Below, in pieces: positions 17,277-28,063 of a stretch of 64,000 nucleotides of DNA (position 1 is its first letter; the number at the start of each line of letters is the position of its first letter). Made by a program: the position numbers and the translations under genes. The notes under the pieces were generated by a model that was given only the letters and a program-made list of their open reading frames with translations, ran no database searches and was not told the origin of the DNA. This DNA comes from Candidatus Bathyarchaeota archaeon (lineage in GTDB: Archaea; Thermoproteota; Bathyarchaeia; Bathyarchaeales; Bathycorpusculaceae). The stretch lies in contig CAWHVC010000003.1 of assembly GCA_963832745.1 (NCBI GenBank), positions 256,001-320,000 of the forward strand, in the 5' to 3' direction.

Positions 17277-18089
17277 TTAGATGATTCTTGGGTAAGACCC
17301 TAGAATCTTAACGAAAGTAGCATATTTTTCCAGCGCTTGCAGGGCTTCTGTGCAGCGTTTTTCTGTTCTGTGTCCTTCGAAGTCGAGGTAAAAATTGTAT
17401 TGCCAAGCGGTGGTTTTGGTTGGTCGGGATTCGATGCGTGTTAGGTTAATGTTTCTGGATGCGAATTCGCCTAGGGCATGATATAGGGTTCCGGGCGCGT
17501 GTTTGGCGCTGAAGATTATGCTGGTTTTGTCGTCTCCTGTTGGAGCTGCGTCTTCTTTTGAAAGTACAAGGAAGCGGGTGTAGTTGGATGGGTTGTCGGC
17601 GATGTCTCGGGCTACGATTTTCATGTTGTAGAGGTCTGCGGCTTTTTCGCTGGCGATTGCTGCTGCGTTAAAGAGAGCTTTTTCTTTTATCATTTTCACG
17701 CTGCCAGCGGTGTCGTAAGCTGGAATGATTTCCCATTTGTGCTTTTCAAGGTAACTGCGGCATTGACCAAGCGCTTGAGGATGGGAATAAACTGATTCGA
17801 TGTCTTCAAACTTTGTTTGAGGATTAGCGATTAAGACATGGGCGAGTTTGACGGCGACTTCTCCGCACACTTTAAGGTCATACGCTAAGAAAAGGTCATA
17901 GTTTTGGTTGACGCTACCCTCGATTGAGTTTTCAATCGGCACAACACCATTGGGAACTGCGCCGGTGTTTACGGATTCAAAGACGTCTCGGAAATCCTTA
18001 CAGGGCACAGGCTCTATTTTGCTGCCGAAAAATTTGTAGACAGCCATTTCGCTGTAAGCGCCAGTTTCTCCCTGATAGGTTACTTTCAT
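17277..18089 (-). CDS. pheA: Prephenate dehydratase
   Basis: YQGETGAYSE, PIENSIEGSV, SHPQALGQC, NYTRF and LTRIESRP (ACT domain). Confidence 0.96.
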   Translation of the reverse strand: MKVTYQGETGAYSEMAVYKFFGSKIEPVPCKDFRDVFESVNTGAVPNGVVPIENSIEGSVNQNYDLFLAYDLKVCGEVAVKLAHVLIANPQTKFEDIESVYSHPQALGQCRSYLEKHKWEIIPAYDTAGSVKMIKEKALFNAAAIASEKAADLYNMKIVARDIADNPSNYTRFLVLSKEDAAPTGDDKTSIIFSAKHAPGTLYHALGEFASRNINLTRIESRPTKTTAWQYNFYLDFEGHRTEKRCTEALQALEKYATFVKILGSYPRII

Positions 18090-19615
18090 TGTTTCTTGAC
18101 CTGATTACGATTCTTTAGTAGGCACTTGTTTATACCGTTTATCATAGCTTCCACGGACGCCATTACGATGTCTTCACGGGCTGCACGGGCGGATACGATG
18201 TTTCCTTTTTCGTCTTCAACTTTTATGATTACTTCAGCCACTGCGTTAGATCCACCAGTGATTGCTTCGAGACGATATTCGCTTAGCTTTATTTTTTCAA
18301 GGTTGCTTGTTAGCTTCTGTATGGCTTTTAGGACGGCGTCTACTGGGCCTACGCCGGTTTCTGCTGCCACGTACTCTTTGCCGTCCAAGGTTAAGCGTAC
18401 GGAAGCGGTTGGGATAACTTTGATGCCGGTTACGACGGCCATGTCGCATAGGTCAACAATTTTTTCTTCACCGAGGACCTCACCCATAACTGCTGAGGTT
18501 AAAGCGATTAAGTCAGCGTCGGTTACCATTTTGCCTTTGTCACCGAGTTCTTTGACGCGTTGCACGATTTCGGTTAATTGTTGCTCGGTTGGGTGGATGC
18601 CAATTTCGTTTAGTTCTGCTTGGATGCCTCTTGTGCCTGCCAGTTTGCCTGCGACGAGTTTGCGGGTTCTTCCGACTAGTTCGGGGCTGATTGGTTCAAA
18701 CGTTAAGGGCTGCTCTGTGACGCCGCGGGTGTGGATGCCTGATTCGTGGGCAAACGCGTTTTCTCCAACAATTGCTTTGTTTACTTGTACTGAGACGCCG
18801 CTTAATGATGCAACCATCCTAGATGTGCTGTACAGTAAACGCGTGTTTACGTTTGTTTTGTACCCGTAAACCACATGCAAGGTTGTTACTACTTCTTCGA
18901 GCGCCGCGTTGCCTGCACGTTCACCGAGCCCGTTGACGGCGACGTGAACTTGGTCTGCGCCTGCTTCAACTGCTGCAAGGCTGTTGGCAACTGCTAAACC
19001 AAAGTCGTTGTGACAGTGAGCGCTAATTGGAACCTTAATGTAACTCTTTAGCTCCTTGAAAAACTCAAAAGTTGTTCTGGGTATCATGCAGCCGACTGTA
19101 TCTGGCGTGTTTAGGCTGTCCATTCCTGCATCTTGGGCTGCCAAGCAGATTTGACGTAGAAAAGACGCTTCGGTGCGGGTGGCATCCATGGGTGAGAATT
19201 CACATTTTACGCCATGCTTCTTAACGTACTGGATTGAATCAACTGCCGCAGATAGGACTTGTTCCGGAGTCATGTTTACAGCGTGTTTCATCTGCACTGG
19301 TGAAGTTGGGATGAATACGTGAATCAAATCTACATTGCATTCTAAGGCGGCGTCGATATCTTTTCTTGTACATCTGGATAAAGCACAAACTTTTGAGTTT
19401 AGGCCTAATTTGGAGATTTCTTTTACGACTTTACGTTCGCCCTCTGAACTACTGGGAAAACCTGCTTCTATAATGTCGACGCCAAGCTTGTTTAGTTGCT
19501 GGGCGATTTCGATTTTATCTTCCAGAGTCAAAGAAACACCGGGGGTTTGTTCCCCGTCACGTAGTGTCGTGTCTAAGATTTTGATAAATCGGGGGTTTTG
19601 AGTCATTGTTTTCAC
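18086..19615 (-). CDS. leuA: 2-isopropylmalate synthase
   Basis: [24 protein letters not shown] and C-terminal regulatory domain; inside the leuCDB operon. Confidence 0.9.
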   Translation of the reverse strand: MKTMTQNPRFIKILDTTLRDGEQTPGVSLTLEDKIEIAQQLNKLGVDIIEAGFPSSSEGERKVVKEISKLGLNSKVCALSRCTRKDIDAALECNVDLIHVFIPTSPVQMKHAVNMTPEQVLSAAVDSIQYVKKHGVKCEFSPMDATRTEASFLRQICLAAQDAGMDSLNTPDTVGCMIPRTTFEFFKELKSYIKVPISAHCHNDFGLAVANSLAAVEAGADQVHVAVNGLGERAGNAALEEVVTTLHVVYGYKTNVNTRLLYSTSRMVASLSGVSVQVNKAIVGENAFAHESGIHTRGVTEQPLTFEPISPELVGRTRKLVAGKLAGTRGIQAELNEIGIHPTEQQLTEIVQRVKELGDKGKMVTDADLIALTSAVMGEVLGEEKIVDLCDMAVVTGIKVIPTASVRLTLDGKEYVAAETGVGPVDAVLKAIQKLTSNLEKIKLSEYRLEAITGGSNAVAEVIIKVEDEKGNIVSARAAREDIVMASVEAMINGINKCLLKNRNQVKKQ

Positions 19616-19619
19616 AAGC

Positions 19620-20645
19620 TTAAGCTTTTAGCGCTGCAGCAATGGCTTGTGCCATCTGCATTGTAGAGGCTTTGCCGCCTAAATCTGGAACGGTAACGCC
19701 GTTAACCAATGTTTGGACTGTAGCGTTTTCTATTGCCGCAGCTGCCTTTAAGCATTTAGAATCATTAAACCGTTCACCCAGCCAATCCAGCATCATCTTT
19801 GCGGACAGTATCATGGATATGGGGTTTGCGATATGCTTACCAGCAATGTCAGGAGCTGAACCATGAATAGGTTCAAACAATGCAAAGTTATCGCCGATGT
19901 TTGCGCCTGGAGCCATGCCCAGACCGCCGATTAACTGCGCTGCCTCGTCACTTAGGATGTCACCGAACATGTTACACGTGCATAGCACGTCGAAGTCTTG
20001 GGGAGTTCGGATAAGGTGCATTGTCGCTGCGTCAACATACATTTCATTGTATTTGATATCTGGATATTTTTCTGCAGTTTCTTGACAGACTTTTTTGAAT
20101 AAGCCGTCGGTTACACGCATGACGTTTGCTTTATGAATTGCTGTTACTTTCTTTTTAGGGCGCAGTCTTGCGGTTTCAAACGCGCGTTTGGCGATGCGTT
20201 CACAGTTTTGCCTTGAAATTACTCGTAAGCACACGGTTACGTCGTTGCCGATTGTGTATTCTAAGCCTTTGTAGACGTCTTCAGTGTTTTCGCGTACGAA
20301 AATCATGTCTATGTCTGGGCGGGCAACTGGCACGTTTGGAAACGCCTTTAATGGGCGCACGTTAGCGTACAAGTCAAACAGCAAGCGTAATCGGACTATA
20401 ACGTCTGCTGCGGTTTCGCCTACTGGACCTTTCAGGCAAGCGTGTGATTCACGAATAACTTTTAGGCTATCCTCTGGCAGGGCGGCACCACGTTTTTTGA
20501 GCACTGCATCGCCTGCTTCAGCTTTGACTAAGTTGAGGTTTACGCCAAAGTTTTCTTGCACTACATCTATTATTTTCAAGGTTGCTTCAGTTAACTCGGG
20601 TCCGATGCCATCGCCGGGCATTAAGGCGATTTTGTATTCGGTCAT
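19620..20645 (-). CDS. leuB: 3-isopropylmalate dehydrogenase
   Basis: PGDGIGPE, RENTED, NMFGDILSD and FEPIHGSAPDIAG. Confidence 0.9.
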   Translation of the reverse strand: MTEYKIALMPGDGIGPELTEATLKIIDVVQENFGVNLNLVKAEAGDAVLKKRGAALPEDSLKVIRESHACLKGPVGETAADVIVRLRLLFDLYANVRPLKAFPNVPVARPDIDMIFVRENTEDVYKGLEYTIGNDVTVCLRVISRQNCERIAKRAFETARLRPKKKVTAIHKANVMRVTDGLFKKVCQETAEKYPDIKYNEMYVDAATMHLIRTPQDFDVLCTCNMFGDILSDEAAQLIGGLGMAPGANIGDNFALFEPIHGSAPDIAGKHIANPISMILSAKMMLDWLGERFNDSKCLKAAAAIENATVQTLVNGVTVPDLGGKASTMQMAQAIAAALKA

Positions 20646-21145
20646 TTCTTGTTCATCCTTTTACGTAAGTTCTCAATTAATCCGCCGTCAGTCAATATTT
20701 CCATGATGAACGGTGGCAAATTAGTGCCCTGCAAACTCTTTTTAGTTGACAGGTTTTCTATTTTGCCTGTTGTCAAATCGACGGAAACCTCATCGCCAGT
20801 TTTTACGGTTTCAGAGATGCCCTTGCATTCAATGACTGGCAAACCAATGTTTATGGCGTTACGGTAGAAGATGCGTGCAAAGGTTTCAGCGATGACACAT
20901 TTTACACCTGAATACTTCAAGGCTAAAGGAGCTTGTTCTCTGCTTGAGCCGCAGCCAAAGTTTTTGCCGCCAATCAGTATGACGCCGCCTTTTGCTTTGT
21001 TAACAAATTCGGTGTCTAAACTTTCCAAGGCGTGTTTGCCTAACTCGTAAGGGTCAACTAGTACCAAGTATTTTCCAGGTAAGATAACGTCGGTGTCAAT
21101 GTTGTTTCCGAATTTTATTGCTGGAGCTTTAATTTTTGAATCCAT
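20642..21145 (-). CDS. leuD: 3-isopropylmalate dehydratase small subunit
   Basis: NIDTDVILP, NFGCGSSREQA and FARIFYRNAINIG. Confidence 0.93.
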   Translation of the reverse strand: MDSKIKAPAIKFGNNIDTDVILPGKYLVLVDPYELGKHALESLDTEFVNKAKGGVILIGGKNFGCGSSREQAPLALKYSGVKCVIAETFARIFYRNAINIGLPVIECKGISETVKTGDEVSVDLTTGKIENLSTKKSLQGTNLPPFIMEILTDGGLIENLRKRMNKK

Positions 21146-22413
21146 TACTGTTTTGCCTCCACTGTTGCTGGGTTGGTGATTTTTCCTGTTAACGCTGAAG
21201 CCGCGACCACTGCTGGTGAAGCTAAGTAAACGTTGGCTTGAGTGCTGCCCATTCTGCCGATGAAGTTGCGGTTGCTGGTGCTAACGCATGTTTCGCCTGC
21301 TGCTAGTAAACCGATGTGTCCACCTAAGCATGGACCACAGGCGGAGCCGCAAACGATTGCGCCTGCTTCAGTAAAGATTTCTGTTAAACCTTCAGCTAAT
21401 GCTTGCTTGTAAACTTCCTGTGAAGCCGGAATAACCAAGGCGCGAACGCCGTCTTTGACTTTTTTGCCCTTCATTACTTGAGCGGCTAAACGTAAGTCTT
21501 CTAGTCTACCATTAGTGCATGAACCAATGAATGCTTGGTCAACTACTACATCGCCAACCTCAGAGATTGGCTTAACATTGTCGACACTTGATGGGCACGC
21601 GATTTGAGGCTCCATTTTTGAAACATCAAAATCCATTGTGCATTCATATTGGGCGTCTTTGTCACTTTTCAGTGTTGCAAAGTCTGGCAAGTTTTTGACT
21701 CGGTTTTGTAGGAACTCTTTGGTTGTTTGGTCAGGTTCGACAATTCCGTTTTTGGCACCCATTTCTACTGCCATGTTACATACAGTCATTCTTCCTGCGA
21801 TGCTCATGGCTTTTATGGTTGGACCAGTGAATTCTGCGCTCTTGTAAATTGCGCCATCAACACCTAACTTGCCTATTATGTTTAGGACTAGGTCTTTTGG
21901 TGTGACGTATTTGGGGAATGTTCCGTTAACTTCGATTTTGATTGCTGAGGGTACTTTGAACCAGATTTTTCCGGTTGTCATTACTGCGGCTGCTTCTGTT
22001 GAGCCGATGCCAGTCGCGAAAGCGCCGAATGCGCCATACGTACATGTGTGTGAGTCTGCGCCGACTATTACTGAGCCAGGCACTACATGACCTTGTTCAG
22101 GCATGACTTGGTGGCAGATACCGCCCCGTCCTACGTCATAGATACGTAGTTTTTGTTCTTTAGCAAATTGACGCATTGTTTTATGAAGTTCAGCTGCTTT
22201 AACAGATTCAGCAGGAATCTGGTGGTCTAGAATGACTACTACTTTTTCGTTGTTCCAAACTTTTTCTGCGCCAATTTTTTTAAACGACTCTACAGCTAAA
22301 GGTCCAGTTAAATCGTGAATCATCAAGACGTCAACGTTTGCGTCCACAATTTCTCCTGGGGCGACAGATTTTTTGCCTGATGCTTTAGCTAAGATTTTTT
22401 CTGTAATATTCAT
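21145..22413 (-). CDS. leuC: 3-isopropylmalate dehydratase large subunit
   Basis: GADSHTCTYG, IGSCTNGR, CGPCLG and STSNRNF. Confidence 0.93.
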   Translation of the reverse strand: MNITEKILAKASGKKSVAPGEIVDANVDVLMIHDLTGPLAVESFKKIGAEKVWNNEKVVVILDHQIPAESVKAAELHKTMRQFAKEQKLRIYDVGRGGICHQVMPEQGHVVPGSVIVGADSHTCTYGAFGAFATGIGSTEAAAVMTTGKIWFKVPSAIKIEVNGTFPKYVTPKDLVLNIIGKLGVDGAIYKSAEFTGPTIKAMSIAGRMTVCNMAVEMGAKNGIVEPDQTTKEFLQNRVKNLPDFATLKSDKDAQYECTMDFDVSKMEPQIACPSSVDNVKPISEVGDVVVDQAFIGSCTNGRLEDLRLAAQVMKGKKVKDGVRALVIPASQEVYKQALAEGLTEIFTEAGAIVCGSACGPCLGGHIGLLAAGETCVSTSNRNFIGRMGSTQANVYLASPAVVAASALTGKITNPATVEAKQ

Positions 22414-22535
22414 GTTTTTTCTTCTCTTAATATTCTATTTTCCACTAAGCAAATGCGTCTTAAGATTAATCCTCTAAGAGACGTCACTAAAATTTTAAAA
22501 AGGGAAAATTAAGCCTTTCCATTCAGTAAACGCTT

Positions 22536-23048
22536 TTACTCGTCGATTCTGATGGATTTAGCGCCTCGAGCTAATGCGGTTATGCCTGTTCTTGCAAGTT
22601 CAAGGACTCCGAAGGTTTTCATCAAGTTTAGAAAGGCATCGATTTTGTCGGGTCCACCAGTAATCTCTATTGTTAAGCTGTCAGTTGAAACATCGATAAT
22701 TCTGCCTCTGAAGACATTAACGAAGTTGATTACGTCAGAGCGTTCCTTGGAATCCATGATTTTGACTTTAATCAGCGCTAGTTCGCGCATGACAAAGTTG
22801 CCTTGTTCGAGTTCCTCAACTTTTAACACATCGATTTGTTTAGCGACCTGTTTGGTTACCTGTTCAAGGGTTTTTTCGTCCTCGTTGACTGTTATGGTCA
22901 TGCGGGCAATGTCTTTTTGCTGTGTTGCACCTACAGTTATGCTTTCAATGTTGAAGTTTCGTCGTCTAAACAAGTTGGCGATGATATGAAGTACACCGGG
23001 CTTGTTTTCGACTAAGACAGATATGACTTTTGTTTTTCCTGCTTCCAT
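22536..23048 (-). CDS. ilvN: Acetolactate synthase small (regulatory) subunit
   Basis: SVLVENKPGVL..LFRRRNFNIESI, RELALIKV and ELARTG. Confidence 0.95.
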   Translation of the reverse strand: MEAGKTKVISVLVENKPGVLHIIANLFRRRNFNIESITVGATQQKDIARMTITVNEDEKTLEQVTKQVAKQIDVLKVEELEQGNFVMRELALIKVKIMDSKERSDVINFVNVFRGRIIDVSTDSLTIEITGGPDKIDAFLNLMKTFGVLELARTGITALARGAKSIRIDE

Positions 23049-24760
23049 TAGTAGTCACCTCTCTGTTGTGGTAATCCACAGCCTGGAGGCACAAATGGAA
23101 CCACATCGGTTTCTGAGCCTATAGGCACATCGATTACCGTTGTAACTTTACTTGACATGGCTGTTTTAACGGCGTTGCGGAACTCGTCAATTGAAGCTGC
23201 ACGGATGCCTTGTGCCCCGTATGCTTCAGCCAACTTGACAAAATCCGTTGTCTTGCCCAAGTTAACAGCGTTGTAGCGTCGGTTATAGAGTGTTCTTTGC
23301 CATTGAGCAACCATACCTAACACGCTATTGTTTAACACTATAACGATTACGGGAATGTCTTCCGTGACGCTGCAGGCTAATTCTTGCTCAGACATGATAA
23401 AGCTGCCATCACCAGCAATGTCGACGACCATGCGGTCGGAACAAGCAACTTTTGCTCCGATAGCTGCAGGGAAACCAAAGCCCATTGTTCCAAGTCCACC
23501 TGAACTGATGAAAGTGCGTGGCTGCAACGTTTGCATGTATAGGGCTGACCACATTTGGTTTTGGCCAACTTCTGTTGTTACTATGCCGCTTTCAGGCAAC
23601 AGTTTACGCAGTTCAGACAGCAAAGCTTTTGGCAGCAAGTCACGCGGCAACTCTTTCATTAAGGGGCTTAACTGTTCCTTGGCTTCCTTGACGCGGTTAG
23701 TCCAGGCTTTGCCTTCGCCTTTCTTTAGCTTCTTAGATGTAGCATTCAGTAGCATTTTCATTGCAGCTTTAGCGTCAGCAACAATAGCTAAGTCAACCTC
23801 AATGTTCTTGTTAATTTCTGCTGGGTCAACATCAATCTGAATTTTTTTAGCGTCCGCTGCAAAAGAGTCCAAGTTGGCGGTTGCACGGTCAGAGAATCTT
23901 GTTCCAATTGCCAGCAAAACGTCGGCTTCACCGATTAACCTGTTAGCGGCTGGGTTGCCATGCATGCCTATGCTTCCTAAAGATAACGGGTGATTCTCTG
24001 GAAATGCGCCTTTACCCATGAAGGTTGTTGCAACAGGCGCCATTAGCAGGTCGGACATTTGCACTATTTCGTCAGATGCGCCTGCCCAGATGACTCCGCC
24101 TCCAACTAGCAAGATTGGGCGTTCTGCTTTTGCTAAGAGTTCGGCGGCTTCGCTGATTTTGGTTGGGTCTGGCGGTTGGGGTAGCCTGTATCCGCGAACG
24201 TTGGGTTTGTTTGTGAATTCAACCTCGGAGATGCCGGCTTGCACGTTTTTGGGCAAGTCAATTAGGACGGGTCCTGGCCTGCCGGTGGTTGCAATGTGGA
24301 AGGCGTTGGTGACCATTTGGGGAATTTCGGAGACGGTGCGTGGTTGGTAATTGTATTTGGTGATGGCTGTGGTGATGCCTAAGATGTCTGCTTCTTGGAA
24401 TGCGTCTCTGCCAATCATGTAGCTTGAGTTGGCGCTGAATGTTGGGATTTGGCCTGTGAGGGCGATGACGGGGCTGGAATCCATGTAAGCGTTTGCGATG
24501 CCTGTTACCAGGTTAGTGGCGCCTGGACCACTGGTTGCCATACATACGCCTGCGCGTCCGCTGGCTCTTGCGTAACCTTCTGCTTCGTGTGCAGCGCATT
24601 GCTCGTGTCGTGCCAGTATGTGTCGGATTTTTTTGTTGCCGCAGAGCGCATCGTATACTGGAAGTATGGCGCCTCCTAAGATTCCAAAGATGGTGTCAAC
24701 ATTTTGACGTTCAAGGGATTCTAAAAGTGCTTGTGCACCAGACATTTTTGGCATGTTCAA
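23048..24760 (-). CDS. ilvB: Acetolactate synthase large subunit
   Basis: RHEQCAAH, TSGPGATN, GRPGPVLID and GDGSF...NN TPP motif. Confidence 0.96.
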   Translation of the reverse strand: MNMPKMSGAQALLESLERQNVDTIFGILGGAILPVYDALCGNKKIRHILARHEQCAAHEAEGYARASGRAGVCMATSGPGATNLVTGIANAYMDSSPVIALTGQIPTFSANSSYMIGRDAFQEADILGITTAITKYNYQPRTVSEIPQMVTNAFHIATTGRPGPVLIDLPKNVQAGISEVEFTNKPNVRGYRLPQPPDPTKISEAAELLAKAERPILLVGGGVIWAGASDEIVQMSDLLMAPVATTFMGKGAFPENHPLSLGSIGMHGNPAANRLIGEADVLLAIGTRFSDRATANLDSFAADAKKIQIDVDPAEINKNIEVDLAIVADAKAAMKMLLNATSKKLKKGEGKAWTNRVKEAKEQLSPLMKELPRDLLPKALLSELRKLLPESGIVTTEVGQNQMWSALYMQTLQPRTFISSGGLGTMGFGFPAAIGAKVACSDRMVVDIAGDGSFIMSEQELACSVTEDIPVIVIVLNNSVLGMVAQWQRTLYNRRYNAVNLGKTTDFVKLAEAYGAQGIRAASIDEFRNAVKTAMSSKVTTVIDVPIGSETDVVPFVPPGCGLPQQRGDY

Positions 24761-24856
24761 TTCTGTCTCCTTTGTTTTGAATTAGCGTTTAGACTGTTGT
24801 CTATGAAAAAATTGTTTGAGAACCGTGTTGCTTGTTTAGAGGTTAACCTAGGAATG

Positions 24857-24907
24857 TTAGAGAATAAGTACCCGTCGATCCCAGCTATTGAGGTGACAAT
24901 CCCTCAT
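24857..24907 (-). CDS. Putative branched-chain amino-acid leader peptide (16 aa, MRDCHLNSWDRRVLIL)
   Basis: ATG 24907 to TAA 24857 with GAGG upstream; last four codons GTA CTT ATT CTC (V-L-I-L); 96 nt upstream of ilvB. Confidence 0.75.
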   Translation of the reverse strand: MRDCHLNSWDRRVLIL

Positions 24908-25051
24908 GTTCTTGCCTCTTTAAAGTTCACGTTAAAATAAAAATACGCAATTGTTCAAATAAAAACCTATCGGTACAGAGGCGTTTTTACAGTAAATTGT
25001 GAATAAACATCATACAAAGCATACAGCCATCTAAGGTTTTTAGGCATGTTT

Positions 25052-25513
25052 TTAGAATGTGCGGTTTCTGAATTCCCGCCTCAGCTTCTCTGAGTCACTT
25101 TCCTCTTCAGCAGCGGGGACTTCTGGTGGGGCGGGTGCCCATTTAATTTGAACTGGCGGTGGCGGCGGTGACGTTTTTTTGGCTGAGAAGTCTTCTGTTT
25201 GGCTTGGCGGGTTTCTGCTTGGCTGGTCTTCTTGGGGTTGTGGCGGCGTTATTTGGTTTTTTGATGTGCCAATGGTGTTTTGGAGTAGTTTGGGTGAAAC
25301 GTAAAGTATTAGCCAAATTATTGAGCCGATGATGAATGTTAAACCTACATAGTAAACAAGTATAACCCATGCTGAGTCATACCCGGAAAAGAGAACATTT
25401 GAAGCTTCAATTATCCAAGCCACAATAATTAGGGCGAAAGCAACAATTATGCATTTAAACCAAGCGTAAAGGTCAAACTGTTTTTTGGCTTTATCAAATG
25501 ACGCTTTAAAGAT
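25052..25513 (-). CDS. Hypothetical two-TM protein with Pro-rich tail; start uncertain (GTG 25423 or non-canonical ATC 25513)
   Basis: Frame is open upstream of the track start and completes the first TM helix; strong GGAGG sits 5 nt before ATC. Confidence 0.6.
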   Translation of the reverse strand: MFKASFDKAKKQFDLYAWFKCIIVAFALIIVAWIIEASNVLFSGYDSAWVILVYYVGLTFIIGSIIWLILYVSPKLLQNTIGTSKNQITPPQPQEDQPSRNPPSQTEDFSAKKTSPPPPPVQIKWAPAPPEVPAAEEESDSEKLRREFRNRTF

Positions 25514-25650: not shown

Positions 25651-27184
25651 TTAGGGCTTTTTTGCGCCGTTGCCGTTTCGGTAATCTGTAATTAGCACGT
25701 TCATGCAGCTTAAGACTGCTTCCATGCTGGCTTTGACGATGTCTTCGCGGACTCCCATGGCGGTAACGGTTCGGTTGCCTTTACGCATGTGAACTACGAC
25801 TTCGACCATTGCGTCAGTTCCGCCGGTGATAGCTTTAACGTTGTATTGTTCCAGCGTTATGGGTTCTTTTTCTTTTATGGCGTTCTTAGCCGCGTTTATA
25901 GCTGCGTCAACTGGGCCTACGCCGACTGCTGTTCCCCAAACGTCTTTGCCGTTAACGCATAAGCGAACGGATGCGGTTGCGGTTACTTTGTCGCCGCCCA
26001 CGAAAGTCATTTCTTCCAGCTTAATCGGTTTAACCCCGCCTAAGCCCATGACGTTTTCTGCTATGGCTAAGACGTCGGCGTCCATGACGGTTTTGCCTTT
26101 GTCGCCGAGTTCTTTGATGCGTTGGAAGATTTCTTTGAATTGGTCGTCTGTGGGTTTTAGTCCCATGCTGTCAAGGTCTGCTTTGATTGCGTGTGAACCG
26201 CTGTGTTTGCCGGGTGCGATGCGGCGTGTACAGCCAACGAGTTCGGGAGCGATGGGTTCGTAGGTTAAGGGGTTTGCAAGCATGCCCTGTGTGTGGATGC
26301 CTGATTCGTGTTTGAACGCGTTTTCGCCAACAATTGCCTTGTTGGGCTGGGTGTGTACACCTGTTAAGCGGGCAACGAGTTGGGATGTGCTGTAGAGGAG
26401 TTCAGTTTTGATGCGTAACTCCTGCTGGTAAAGGGTGCGAAGGGTGATTACGATTTCTTCTATGGCGGCGTTTCCTGCACGTTCGCCTAGGCCGTTTATG
26501 GTTCCGTGGGCTTCCTGCGCGCCTGCTCCAAGGGCGGCGATGGTGTTTGCTACTGCCATGCCGAAGTCGTTGTGGCAATGCACGCCAACAGGAACCTTGA
26601 GTGTTTCTGTGAGTTTGGTGAAGAACTCGAAAGAGCGGTCAGGTGTTAAGATGCCTACTGTGTCGCATGGCGTGACTCGGTCTGCTCCGCAAGCTTCGGC
26701 TGCTTGGAAAACTTGGGTCAGGTAGTCAAAGTCTGAGCGTGTTGCGTCTTCGGCGAGCAGGTCAACTTTTAAGCCGTGTGCTTTGGCGTAGCTGACACAG
26801 TCCTCTGTGATTTTGACAACTTGGTCACGGGTCTTGCGCAGTTTACACTCGATATGCAAGTCTGACGTGGGTATTATCATGCACATTGTTTGTGCGCCAC
26901 TTTTGATGACGGCGTCTATGTCGCCTATTGTACCTCTGCCTGCGCTTGCCACTTCTGCTCTTAGGCCCTGCTTGGCAATCAAGCTTACAGCTTCAAGTTC
27001 GCCTTCAGAAACCGCGGCAAACCCAGCCTCAATCACATCCACGCCCAACTCGTCAAGACGCTGAGCTATGCGCAACTTGTTTTCTGGTACAAGAGATACT
27101 CCGGGTGTTTGTTCACCATCACGAAGGGTGGTGTCTAAAAAGTTTATACGCTTAGGGAAGCGGTTGAATAAAGCAATACCCCAT
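25651..27184 (-). CDS. cimA: (R)-citramalate synthase (LeuA paralog); 5' end lacks an in-frame canonical start
   Basis: Frame extends upstream of the track start through [14 protein letters not shown]; [22 protein letters not shown] is CimA-like; ATG 27184 is out of frame by one base. Confidence 0.8.
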
Positions 27185-27304: not shown

Positions 27305-27553
27305 ATGGAGGAACAGGTTATACTAAAAGTTGATTCTAAAGGGAGATTGTGCATTCCCGCCGAATTCAGGGAAGAAATCGGAGACGCCGCAATCATGAAA
27401 AAAACGCCCCAAGGCTTTCTCATTGTACCGGGCAAACAAGAAAACTTTATTGAATCCTTCAACAAAACCATAACCTCCGAGCCAAAACGTAAAGGCAAAC
27501 CTAAACTTGCCACTCCAGAAGAAATGAAGACTGCTTGGAGAACAGTCAAGTGA
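27305..27553 (+). CDS. AbrB/MazE/SpoVT-family antitoxin
   Basis: KVDSKGRLCIPAEFREEIG; overlaps the PIN gene. Confidence 0.88.
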   Translation: MEEQVILKVDSKGRLCIPAEFREEIGDAAIMKKTPQGFLIVPGKQENFIESFNKTITSEPKRKGKPKLATPEEMKTAWRTVK

Positions 27554-27987
27554 TAACTGGCTTAGACACAAACATCCTCTGCTACGCTCTTGACAAAATT
27601 TACCCAGAAAACACCCACATCAAAGAATTACTTACCAGTCTTTCGCCCGAAAACCTTGTTGCCATTAACCCAACAGTGCTCCATGAAACATACCACACAC
27701 TTGTTTACTATCTAGAATGGGCCCCCGAAGAAGCAGCAAAACGGCTGTCACTAATGCTAAAACATCCCTATATCAAATTCTACAACCAAACCCAAAAAAC
27801 CAGTCAAATAGCACTAAACCTTGCCGTAAAACATGGTTTAGAGGGCAGAGACGCCCTAATAGTCGCCAATTATTTGGCAAACAAAACCCCAATTATCTAC
27901 ACCCACGACAAAGCACTGCTAAAACTACAAAAAATCACTTGGAAAAATACCTGCCTAACACTAAAAGACCCAATCAACCAAAAATGA
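27550..27987 (+). CDS. vapC: VapC PIN-domain toxin
   Basis: LDTNIL, HETY, RDALIVA and YTHD acidic PIN residues; GTGA overlap with the antitoxin stop. Confidence 0.9.
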   Translation: MITGLDTNILCYALDKIYPENTHIKELLTSLSPENLVAINPTVLHETYHTLVYYLEWAPEEAAKRLSLMLKHPYIKFYNQTQKTSQIALNLAVKHGLEGRDALIVANYLANKTPIIYTHDKALLKLQKITWKNTCLTLKDPINQK

Positions 27988-27996
27988 AAAATGCAA

Positions 27997-28063
27997 AATA
28001 AAGCAATACCCCATTTTAAAGTCACTCTATGGTTCAGGGTCAATGAACGATATAAAAACTATG
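27997..28063. repeat. Direct repeat copy 2 (duplicate of the cimA promoter and start region)
   Basis: First ~40 bp identical to 27167-27205 except a 1-nt indel; TATA segment also conserved. Confidence 0.9.

What the first reader, a model, noticed from the sequence alone, without database searches (positions are those of the whole stretch)
24761..24970. V-L-I-L leader peptide and U-tract ahead of the ilvBN-leuCDBA operon
Seen (minus strand), in order: TATA-like TTTTTATTT (~24957-24965); GAGG then ATG 24907; MRDCHLNSWDRRVLIL-stop (24857), whose last four codons cover all three branched-chain amino acids; palindrome AGGTTAACCT; a T6 tract (24806-24811); a small TAGAC/GTCTA hairpin; then the AGGAG SD and TTG of ilvB. 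Known: bacterial ilvBL, ilvL and leuL leaders use clustered Val/Leu/Ile codons, and archaeal RNA polymerase terminates at oligo-U tracts. Inference: ribosome position at the leader end decides termination at the U6 tract about 45 nt downstream.
Basis: partly seen in the sequence, partly recalled or inferred. Interest (0 to 1): 0.88.

Follow-up and report, generated by a model that had tools for sequence, protein, structure and literature searches.

The report
Two-frame leader before archaeal ilvB operon
The short leader gene ahead of this archaeon's branched-chain amino acid operon is real and conserved, but it is overlapped by a second reading frame without a start codon that runs to the first enzyme gene, which suggests that amino acid shortage is sensed by a ribosome slipping forward one base.

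Summary
The uORF (SD, ATG 24907, MRDCHLNSWDRRVLIL, TAA 24857) is conserved ahead of ilvB in Bathyarchaeia: 44 distinct leaders. The ending V-L-I-L occurs in 12 of 31 close leaders. A run of 5 or more T at the matching place occurs in 12 of 30.

Three things are conserved:
1. The first 40 nt, down to single bases.
2. Leu codon 6 and Val codon 13. Each lies 11 nt after a GGGAU motif that is complementary to the 16S 3' end.
3. A +1 reading frame with no start codon. It is closed upstream by UGA, open for 36-61 codons in 44 of 44 leaders, and ends on the ilvB start.

A sister leader, MGY[CR]F[I/V], occurs in 172 of 401 genomes of the class. With Ile at codon 6, its +1 frame is the LeuA/CimA-like gene itself (36 of 36). 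With Val, the +1 frame ends on the ATG of valS (5 of 5). One copy lies in this window (27184).

Best reading: a leader that senses an amino acid by programmed +1 frameshift. This rests on comparison alone; there are no expression data. I found no description in print.

The parts
24957..24965 (-). TATA-like box TTTTTATTT, with a conserved BRE-like ACCG(A/T)A(A/G)(A/G) just upstream; probable promoter of the leader transcript
   Evidence: the TTTTTAT columns are invariant in 23 of 23 aligned same-genus leaders, while sequence further upstream is not conserved. Promoter function is inferred.
24915..24920 (-). Shine-Dalgarno AAGAGG of ORF0, 7 nt before the ATG
   Evidence: GAGG or GGAG lies 7-9 nt before the start in all leaders listed (one GGGG variant).
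24857..24907 (-).
   Evidence: 16 codons in 23 of 23 same-genus loci. The start is ATG or GTG. L038 has ACG there but an in-frame ATG two codons upstream.
24904..24906 (-). UGA in the +1 frame (nt 2-4 of ORF0) that closes ORF1 upstream
   Evidence: present in all 44 leaders. It is part of the search motif, so this is by construction.
24890..24905 (-). Sensor module 1: GAGGGATT (complementary to the 16S 3' end), a 6-nt spacer, then Leu codon 6 CTC (24892-24890)
   Evidence: AGGGAT and CTC are invariant in 23 of 23 distinct blocks. The duplex with the genome's own 16S tail is -9.1 kcal/mol, in the top 1% of 6653 12-mers of the operon's coding sequence.
24869..24882 (-). Sensor module 2: GGGATC, a 6-nt spacer, then Val codon 13 GTA (24871-24869), with the same spacing as module 1
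   Evidence: in other families the same two modules stand in the reverse order.
24757..24903 (-). ORF1: +1 frame, 48 sense codons (GIVTSIAGIDGYLFSN...RRQN) with no ATG, GTG or TTG at its head. Its stop TGA (24759-24757) overlaps the ilvB TTG and lies 2 nt before ATG 24754.
   Evidence: the +1 frame is open for 36-61 codons in 44 of 44 leaders and ends -16 to +26 nt from the ilvB start. Frame 0 is open in 0 of 44 over the same stretch.
24806..24811 (-). T6 tract, read as UUU UUC inside ORF1
   Evidence: not conserved.
23048..24760 (-). ilvB (acetolactate synthase large subunit); SD GGAG at 24770-24767; start at TTG 24760 or ATG 24754
17277..23048 (-). Rest of the operon: ilvN, leuC, leuD, leuB, a leuA-like gene and prephenate dehydratase
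27152..27184 (-). Sister leader ORF0: [10 protein letters not shown] plus TAA, with Ile codon 6 ATT at 27169-27167; TATA TTTTTATAT at 27227-27219
25651..27183 (-). LeuA/CimA-like gene lying in the +1 frame of that leader. It has no in-frame ATG, GTG or TTG between the upstream stop (27198-27196) and TTG 27075, which lies beyond the conserved DTTLRDGEQ.
27961..28014 (-). Second, orphan copy of the MGY promoter and leader start (ATG 28014), cut off from the LeuA/CimA-like gene by an inserted + strand PIN/antitoxin pair

Best explanation
The region is the head of a two-frame translational leader of the ilvBN-leuCDBA operon.

Proposed course of events:
1. Ribosomes start at ATG 24907 (ORF0).
2. 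ORF0 carries two sensor modules. Each is a GGGAU motif complementary to the 16S 3' end, a 6-nt spacer, and then one branched-chain codon: Leu6 CUC and Val13 GUA.
3. When Leu-tRNA and Val-tRNA are charged, the ribosome stays in frame 0. It stops at 24857, about 100 nt before ilvB.
4. When one of them is scarce, the ribosome waits with the empty ('hungry') codon in the A site and shifts +1 into ORF1.
5. ORF1 has no start codon of its own. It runs through the whole leader and stops on the ilvB start (TTGA, 2 nt before the ATG).
6. This delivers ribosomes to ilvB by termination-reinitiation or by opening the site. It may also cover the U-rich leader RNA.

The MGYCFI leader at 27184 works the same way, with an Ile codon. 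There the +1 frame is the LeuA/CimA-like enzyme itself.

Shown: the conserved ORF0 with SD and start; the start-less open +1 frame ending at the target start; the match between sensor codon and target gene; the complementarity to the 16S tail.
Inferred: the frameshift itself, its site, its dependence on charged tRNA, and the coupling.
For: 1. ORF0 with SD and ATG or GTG is conserved in 23 of 23 same-genus and 6 of 7 same-order ilvB loci, and in further named Bathyarchaeia records.

2. In 44 of 44 distinct leaders the +1 frame is open for 36-61 codons, and its stop falls -16 to +26 nt from the ilvB start, often as ATGA or TTGA. From nt 41 to 10 nt before ilvB the +1 frame is open in 43 of 44, frame 0 in 0 of 44 and the -1 frame in 8 of 44. 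Per-leader shuffle probabilities are 0.06-0.42. Their product over the 14 most divergent leaders is 4e-13.

3. pN/pS is about 0.85 in all three frames downstream of nt 41. Only openness is kept, as expected if the transit of the ribosome is what matters and not the peptide.

4. The sister family RTGGGGTATNGNTTTNTN has 380 matches in 172 of 401 class genomes, against about 9 for the reversed control. With codon 6 = NVN there are 40 matches against about 28 for the control.

5. Sensor codon against target (distinct sequences):
- fused LeuA/CimA-like gene: 36 of 36 Ile;
- valS (NCBIfam valine-tRNA ligase, 980 bits): 5 of 5 Val, with the +1 ORF of 56-58 codons ending as ATGA in 4 of 5;
- ilvB: tandem modules Val then Ile, and once Val, Leu, Ile, all in one +1 frame.

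6. In 31 of 40 LeuA/CimA-like genes there is no ATG, GTG or TTG in frame between the leader and DTTLRDGEQ; the window's gene is one of these.

7. L044 and L046 carry a hybrid leader: a Val module of the MRD kind plus MGDRFI, fused to the LeuA/CimA-like gene. The two types are therefore one family.

8. The modules are the best anti-SD partners in the leader: -9.1 and -7.4 kcal/mol.
Against: - There are no expression, ribosome or protein data of any kind.
- The P-site codon in the window (CAC) cannot re-pair in the +1 frame (ACC). There is no classical slippery site. In the MGY type, UUU to UUA/UUG re-pairs only in two positions.
- Within the conserved block, 8 of the 12 '+1 third positions' vary, and always synonymously in +1. 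Two of them (nt 10 and 13) lie before codon 6. The +1 frame may therefore be read from about nt 5-8. That would mean a shift at codon 2-3 or a start at AUH, which would undercut the codon-6 sensor.
- In the MGY type the A/G choice at nt 16 (Ile/Val) is also synonymous in +1 (UUA/UUG).
- The codon-to-target counts come from related genomes, so they are not independent. Ile with the LeuA/CimA-like gene spans at least 8 families; Val with valS spans only 2.
- 9 of 40 LeuA/CimA-like genes do have an in-frame GTG or TTG.
- ilvB has its own GGAG, so it may be translated without ORF1.
- The spacing between the SD-like motif and the P-site codon (6 nt) differs from the 3 nt I recall for prfB.
Confidence: 0.6

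Rival explanations
1. ORF1 is translated from a non-canonical start of its own: the AUH codon at nt 8-10, in the +1 frame. ORF0 is an overlapping competitor or decoy, and there is no frameshift.
For: Nt 8-10 is AUC, AUU or AUA in both leader types, and G at nt 10 is almost absent (1 of 149 listed matches). The variation at nt 10 and nt 13 is synonymous in the +1 frame.
Against: The absence of G at nt 10 is equally explained by avoidance of an unregulated AUG in the +1 frame. AUH would lie 14-15 nt from the SD. This reading does not explain why codon 6 of frame 0 follows the target gene (36 of 36 Ile, 5 of 5 Val). It does not explain why tandem modules carry different codons. A ribosome stalled in ORF0 would also block this start under starvation, which is the wrong direction.
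Confidence: 0.12
2. The +1 frameshift is real but constitutive or corrective (a set ratio), or it occurs at codon 2-3 (AGG to GGG, or GGG to GGU). It does not report branched-chain amino acids.
For: G runs follow the start directly (A GGG A, G GGG U) and allow re-pairing. The +1-synonymous pattern begins at nt 10.
Against: The match between codon 6 and the target gene, and the restriction to NUN codons. Val and Leu modules stand in either order with fixed internal spacing. Nt 16 (C of CUC) is nearly invariant although it is a +1 third position.
Confidence: 0.12
3. One reading: a classical leader-peptide attenuator. The ribosome's position at the terminal V-L-I-L codons decides whether the archaeal RNA polymerase terminates at the U6 tract.
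For: The leader ORF, the branched-chain codons at its end and the T6 tract exist in the window. A T-rich stretch at this place is common.
Against: V-L-I-L occurs in 12 of 31 leaders and some endings have no branched-chain residue after Val (HFY, PRN). A run of 5 or more T at the place occurs in 12 of 30, and 5 of 30 have no T4 at all. There is no structure. The model does not explain the open +1 frame or the start-less LeuA/CimA-like gene.
Confidence: 0.06
4. The conserved 40 nt are a binding site (a DNA operator or an RNA element) for a regulator or a ligand, and the reading frames are incidental.
For: Conservation down to single bases, a direct repeat GGGATCG 21 nt apart, and a possible GAGG/CCUC hairpin.
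Against: Rfam finds nothing. None of the 15 predicted pairs shows a compensatory change. An 18-nt in-frame insertion splits the hairpin in other families. The SD, the start codon and an open 40-60-codon frame are kept in unalignable sequence. There is only one copy in the genome.
Confidence: 0.06

Closest known systems
prfB (bacterial release factor 2) autoregulatory +1 frameshift
   Same: A short frame-0 ORF with a start, and the useful product or route in the +1 frame without a start. A slowly decoded A-site codon acts as the sensor. An SD-like motif lies just upstream; the MGY leader even shares GGGGUAU with the prfB site as I recall it.
   Different: The proposed sensed codon is a sense codon (Leu, Val or Ile) and not UGA. 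There is no CUU-U slippery codon in the window. The spacer is 6 nt and not 3. The organism is an archaeon. In the ilvB and valS cases the +1 ORF yields no product of its own but leads to the next gene.
Antizyme +1 frameshift (polyamine sensor)
   Same: Frameshift efficiency acts as both sensor and effector of a metabolic feedback loop (Atkins 2016, PMC5009743, passages read).
   Different: Antizyme senses a small molecule at a stop codon and uses nascent-peptide and 3' RNA elements. Here the proposed signal is the supply of aminoacyl-tRNA.
Enterobacterial ilvBL, ilvL and leuL leader-peptide attenuators
   Same: A short translated leader ahead of branched-chain operons in which cognate codons are the sensor.
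   Different: There are no runs of regulatory codons, no alternative hairpins and no conserved terminator. The read-out is proposed to be the reading frame and translational coupling.
ermC leader: ketolide-induced frameshift that opens the downstream start; pheL frameshift (incidental)
   Same: Shifted ribosomes read on through the spacer and so activate the downstream gene (Atkins 2016, passage read).
   Different: That shift is induced by a drug and relies on mRNA structure. pheL shifting was judged incidental. Here the new frame is kept open over 40-60 codons in 44 of 44 leaders.
T-box leaders of Firmicutes
   Same: The same regulon logic: one modular leader type, with a single specifier codon, controls both aminoacyl-tRNA synthetase and biosynthesis genes (valS, ilvB, LeuA/CimA-like).
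   Different: T-boxes bind uncharged tRNA directly as structured RNA. No such structure or Rfam match is seen here.

Membership tests
Ribosome-mediated transcription attenuator (ilvL/leuL type) | Short translated leader ORF ahead of the biosynthetic operon | tested here: met
   SD plus ATG or GTG plus ORF are conserved. Translation itself is inferred.
Ribosome-mediated transcription attenuator (ilvL/leuL type) | A cluster of cognate regulatory codons | tested here: not met
   Only the single codons Leu6 and Val13 are conserved. The terminal V-L-I-L occurs in 12 of 31 leaders.
Ribosome-mediated transcription attenuator (ilvL/leuL type) | Alternative terminator and antiterminator structures followed by a U run | tested here: not met
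   Fold z = -0.04. RNAalifold gives 15 pairs with 0 compensatory changes. The T run is not conserved.
Regulatory programmed +1 ribosomal frameshift (prfB/antizyme kind) | A short ORF0 with a start, overlapped by a +1 ORF without a start that carries or leads to the product | tested here: met
   44 of 44 ilvB leaders. The LeuA/CimA-like gene is fused in +1 in 36 of 36, and 31 of 40 lack any canonical in-frame start.
Regulatory programmed +1 ribosomal frameshift (prfB/antizyme kind) | A slowly decoded A-site codon at the shift site that reports the regulated quantity | tested here: inconclusive
   The codon's identity follows the target gene (Ile 36 of 36, Val 5 of 5) and only NUN codons occur. 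The shift site and slow decoding are not shown, and allows an earlier shift.
Regulatory programmed +1 ribosomal frameshift (prfB/antizyme kind) | A stimulatory SD-like element upstream of the shift site | tested here: met
   GAGGGAUU pairs with the genome's own 16S tail at -9.1 kcal/mol, top 1%. The spacing differs from the prfB spacing as I recall it.
Regulatory programmed +1 ribosomal frameshift (prfB/antizyme kind) | A P-site codon whose tRNA can re-pair in the +1 frame | tested here: not met
   In the window CAC shifts to ACC. Other leaders have UUC, UAC, AUU, GUU or CGG. The MGY type (UUU to UUA/G) re-pairs in part.
Regulatory programmed +1 ribosomal frameshift (prfB/antizyme kind) | A trans-frame product, or frameshifted ribosomes, observed | not testable with these tools
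   No RNA or protein data; see Tried and rejected.
Riboswitch, T-box or other curated RNA family | A match to a covariance model, or a conserved structure | tested here: not met
   Rfam at E up to 10 gives only chance-level hits on the other strand.
Translational coupling by overlapping stop and start | The stop of the upstream ORF overlaps or abuts the start of the target gene | tested here: met
   In the window TTGA overlaps the TTG and lies 2 nt before the ATG. ATGA occurs in many ilvB leaders and in 4 of 5 valS leaders.

The most novel reading that the evidence does not exclude
Bathyarchaeia carry a modular family of leaders that sense aminoacyl-tRNA by frameshift. In each module a motif complementary to the 16S tail holds the ribosome with one Leu, Ile or Val codon in the A site. 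If that tRNA is uncharged the ribosome moves +1 into a start-less frame. That frame either is the enzyme (LeuA/CimA-like) or carries the ribosome to the start of ilvB or valS. Modules are strung together as OR gates (Val+Ile; Val+Leu+Ile; Leu+Val in this window). This would be the first natural use of 'hungry-codon' frameshifting as a sensor. It would also be the first +1 programmed frameshift in Archaea and a functional counterpart of T-box and attenuator control.
Probability: 0.55. Interest if true: 0.97.

Novelty: categorically new. Interest (0 to 1): 0.92.

Why it matters
How archaea tie amino acid biosynthesis and aminoacyl-tRNA synthetase genes to the supply of amino acids is largely unknown. 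Leader-peptide attenuation and T-boxes are bacterial textbook cases.

If this reading holds, one short and portable cassette (SD-like motif, spacer, one codon) would turn the charging level of a chosen tRNA into gene expression, through the choice of reading frame. Two reviews bear on this:
- The 2016 frameshifting review says, about productive use of hungry-codon frameshifting, that 'no examples are known' (PMC5009743, passage read).
- The 2021 review of archaeal recoding lists a single -1 case (PMC8211752, abstract and section 7 part 1).

There is also a practical side. The LeuA/CimA-like gene has no canonical start in frame. Under ORF listing' first-start rule its ORF begins only at TTG 27075, beyond the conserved DTTLRDGEQ. 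Gene callers that require such a start would be expected to truncate it or miss its head in the same way. The leader gives a direct, testable handle in the cultivated Ca. Bathyarchaeum tardum, whose genome carries it.

Tried and rejected
- Rfam at E up to 10 on 24500-25300: six chance-level hits, all on the + strand.
- Single-sequence fold of the leader: z = -0.04.
- RNAalifold on 23 leaders: SD/CCUCU, GAGG/CCUC and one weak third helix, with 0 compensatory pairs. By eye I considered a helix CUGGG/CCCAG and a small hairpin AGG..CCU. Both have some compensatory changes but also mismatches in 5 or more leaders, so I dropped them.
- Other copies of the MRD motif in the own genome: none. The look-alikes are tRNA T-arms on the opposite strand or lie inside genes.
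- valS, ileS and leuS of the own genome: no such leader.
- Leaders for other amino acids: the MGY pattern with codon 6 = NVN is at control level.
- Protein-level constraint on ORF1: none. ORF1 is therefore not a small-protein gene.
- A tRNA that reads four bases: aragorn finds 40 tRNAs, none with a four-base anticodon and one odd two-base call. tRNAs with introns were not searched.
- Expression: no RNA holder listed. The four runs I laid are contigs of relatives, probably DNA, and show no start or end.
- Whether 25651-27183 is a citramalate or an isopropylmalate synthase: NCBIfam gives only the subfamily. The best PDB match is a LeuA. 'CimA' is therefore an inference from the Ile codon.
- Supplementary files of papers were not opened.
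- A correction to my own notebook: one search gives 23 real leaders and 7 other hits among the 30 loci, not 24 and 6.
Full report
**1. The observation.** On the minus strand every listed item is present at the stated place. These are the TATA-like TTTTTATTT (24965-24957), GAGG (24918-24915), ATG 24907 and the 16-codon ORF MRDCHLNSWDRRVLIL with TAA at 24859-24857. They also include AGGTTAACCT (24849-24840), T6 (24811-24806), TAGAC/GTCTA, GGAG (24770-24767), and then TTG 24760 and ATG 24754. Pfam confirms ilvB, ilvN, leuC, leuD, leuB and a leuA-like gene, and adds a prephenate dehydratase gene at the end. Upstream lie a 123-aa ORF with no family and a second LeuA-like gene. Record titles of the nearest ilvB loci name Bathyarchaeia, among them Ca. 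Bathycorpusculum.

**2. What is conserved and what is not.** I took ilvB orthologues from 23 same-genus and 7 same-order genomes and 80 named loci, and read their upstream regions.
- The uORF with a GAGG or GGAG 7-9 nt upstream and an ATG or GTG start is present in 23 of 23 same-genus loci, always with 16 codons, and in 6 of 7 same-order loci.
- In the seventh species the motif lies about 1560 nt upstream of ilvB, ahead of the preceding LeuA-like gene. It therefore marks the start of the operon.
- The first 40 nt are nearly invariant at the level of single bases.
V-L-I-L occurs in 12 of 31 close leaders; other endings are VQLF, VQLL, VQIL, VQIS, VLFC, VHFY, VPRN and VPIL.
- The T tract is not conserved either. 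A run of 5 or more T at 34-52 nt after the stop occurs in 12 of 30, and 5 of 30 have no T4 at all.
- The leader does not fold better than shuffles (z = -0.04). RNAalifold finds 15 pairs without one compensatory change. Rfam finds nothing.

**3. The hidden frame.** In all 44 distinct leaders the +1 frame behaves in a fixed way.
- It is closed by UGA at nt 2-4 of the uORF and then stays open for 36-61 codons.
- Its stop falls -16 to +26 nt from the ilvB start, often as ATGA or TTGA. In the window, TGA 24759-24757 overlaps TTG 24760 and lies 2 nt before ATG 24754.
- It has no ATG, GTG or TTG at its head.
- The -1 frame closes after two codons in 31 of 44.
- From nt 41 to 10 nt before ilvB the +1 frame is open in 43 of 44, frame 0 in 0 of 44 and the -1 frame in 8 of 44. 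Dinucleotide shuffles give 0.06-0.42 per leader.
- For the 14 most divergent leaders, whose sequences there cannot be aligned, the product of these probabilities is 4e-13.
- Downstream of nt 41, pN/pS is 0.83-0.89 in all three frames. The peptide is not under selection; only the open frame is.
- Inside the conserved block the variable sites are 8 of the 12 +1 third positions, all synonymous in +1 and all replacements in frame 0. Against these stand 3 of 12 frame-0 third positions and 3 of 12 others.

**4. A sister leader in the same window.** Ahead of the second LeuA-like gene lies ATG 27184, [13 protein letters not shown] 27152.
- The enzyme's frame is the +1 frame of this uORF. It has no ATG, GTG or TTG between the stop at 27198-27196 and TTG 27075, which lies beyond the conserved DTTLRDGEQ.
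- The pattern RTGGGGTATNGNTTTNTN has 380 matches in 172 of 401 genomes of the class, against about 9 (my count) for the reversed control.
- Among the 149 listed matches, nt 16 is A or G in all but 4, and nt 10 is G once.
- With codon 6 = NVN there are 40 matches against about 28 for the control. The family is therefore confined to NUN codons.
- Of the 30 loci returned, 23 are leaders whose +1 frame runs straight into the LeuA/CimA-like ORF. The other 7 are unrelated hits.

**5. Sensor codon and target.** I fetched 20 more places from other families.
- Val-type leaders (MGY[CR]FV...) have a +1 ORF of 56-58 codons. Its stop overlaps the ATG of an 808-817-aa gene in 5 of 5 cases, as ATGA in 4. 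One of these genes (L145) was scanned against NCBIfam and is valine-tRNA ligase: 980 bits against a cut-off of 738. The other four were assigned by a sequence motif in the script.
- Ile-type leaders are fused to the LeuA/CimA-like gene.
- ilvB in those families carries tandem modules 45 nt apart, Val then Ile, and once Val, Leu, Ile. All modules lie in one +1 frame that ends on the ilvB ATG.
- The tally over distinct sequences is: LeuA/CimA-like 36 of 36 Ile; valS 5 of 5 Val; ilvB 4 Val, 7 Ile and 1 Leu.
- 31 of 40 LeuA/CimA-like genes have no canonical in-frame start before DTT. Seven have GTG at a conserved Ile/Val position and two have TTG.
- Ca. Bathyarchaeum tardum has a hybrid ORF0, VRDHWVLEGQKMGDRFIH. 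It is a Val module of the MRD kind plus an MGD Ile module, with the +1 frame fused to the enzyme. The MRD and MGY leaders are therefore one family.

**6. The window's leader read as modules.** In frame 0 it is [AUG AGG GAU UGU CAC CUC] plus [AGC UGG GAU CGA CGG GUA].
- In each module a GGGAU is followed at the same distance (11 nt from its first G) by a branched-chain codon: Leu6 and Val13.
- Other families carry the same two modules in the reverse order: GUG AGG GAU AGC CGG GUA, then CGG AGG AAU CGU UUC CUC.
- The genome's 16S rRNA ends in GGAUCACCUCCU.
- Modules 1 and 2 are the best partners of that tail in the leader: -9.1 kcal/mol (top 1% of 6653 12-mers of the operon's coding sequence) and -7.4 kcal/mol (top 3%). 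The MGY motif gives -6.1 kcal/mol, top 6%.

**7. Mechanism.** The data fit the architecture of a regulatory +1 programmed frameshift. There is a short ORF0 with a start, a start-less +1 ORF that is or leads to the product, an SD-like element upstream, and a single codon whose identity follows the regulated pathway. I propose that a vacant Leu or Val codon in the A site lets the ribosome move +1. In ORF1 the ribosome then reaches the ilvB start and hands over by termination-reinitiation. It may also shield the U-rich leader. With charged tRNA the ribosome ends ORF0 about 100 nt short of ilvB. The steps from 'vacant codon' onward are inference.

Points against this reading:
- There is no slippery P-site codon in the window (CAC).
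- The +1-synonymous variation begins already at nt 10 and 13. This allows an earlier shift or an AUH start.
- The A/G choice at nt 16 of the MGY type is also silent in +1.
- The counts come from related genomes.
- ilvB has its own SD.

The rivals are scored in their own section.

**8. Literature.** Five full-text searches found no description of such leaders. Each is a listing only, except as follows.
- Atkins et al. 2016 (PMC5009743, passages) describe prfB, antizyme, ermC and pheL. They state that no examples are known of hungry-codon frameshifting yielding useful trans-frame products.
- De Lise et al. 2021 (PMC8211752, abstract and section 7 part 1) report a single -1 case in Archaea.
- PMC13158618 (passages) mentions attenuation only for bacteria.
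- The names Ty1, Ty3, the prfB site sequence and FttA/aCPSF1 in my reasoning are recalled, apart from what those passages contain.

**9. Limits.** Everything rests on comparative sequence analysis.

Noticed in passing
window 27152-27184 (-) and 25651-27183 (-): A second leader ([10 protein letters not shown]) lies ahead of the second LeuA-like gene. The enzyme lies in the leader's +1 frame and has no canonical in-frame start before its conserved DTTLRDGEQ. The Ile sensor codon suggests that it is the citramalate synthase of the Ile pathway, but NCBIfam places it only in the IPMS/citramalate subfamily.
   Followed up: yes
window 27305-28043: The promoter and the first 18 nt of the MGY leader occur twice (ATG 27184 and ATG 28014). 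Between the copies, on the + strand, lie a PIN-domain gene (27535-27987, Pfam E 1.8e-9) and a small AbrB/MazE-like gene (27305-27553, below the Pfam cut-off). It looks like a toxin-antitoxin pair inserted into the leader region, with duplication of the target.
   Followed up: partly
loci L055-L106 (Nitrososphaeria ilvB upstream regions): 39 of 53 loci carry a different short ORF that ends in a Leu/Val-rich run, for example MTKVDSTSISSILLLVELVL, MPRTDSEHNVHVLVLLELA and MNEELNQKTGLLLLVDLVL. It ends 23-57 nt before ilvB. In many loci a hairpin spans the stop (GCUGUAA..ACAGC) and a short U run follows. This looks like a classical branched-chain leader-peptide attenuator in Thaumarchaeota. A search for 'Nitrosopumilus', 'leader peptide' and 'attenuat' found 0 papers.
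   Followed up: partly
L142 (G204:C1:497700-501600), nt 357-470: Three sensor modules in a row ahead of ilvB (MGYSFV.., MGYRIL.., MGYRFI), that is Val, Leu and Ile. They are 45 nt apart, and all share one +1 frame that ends on the ilvB ATG.
   Followed up: partly
window 17277-18089 (-): A prephenate dehydratase gene (PDT plus ACT domains) overlaps the end of the leuA-like gene by 4 nt. It seems to belong to the branched-chain operon.
   Followed up: no
window 25052-25423 (-): A 123-aa ORF with no Pfam family lies between the LeuA/CimA-like gene and the ilvB leader.
   Followed up: no
own genome, contig not recorded, 85211-85296 (complement): aragorn reports one 86-nt tRNA-like gene with a two-base 'anticodon' (ca). 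It is probably a tRNA with an intron that was modelled wrongly.
   Followed up: no
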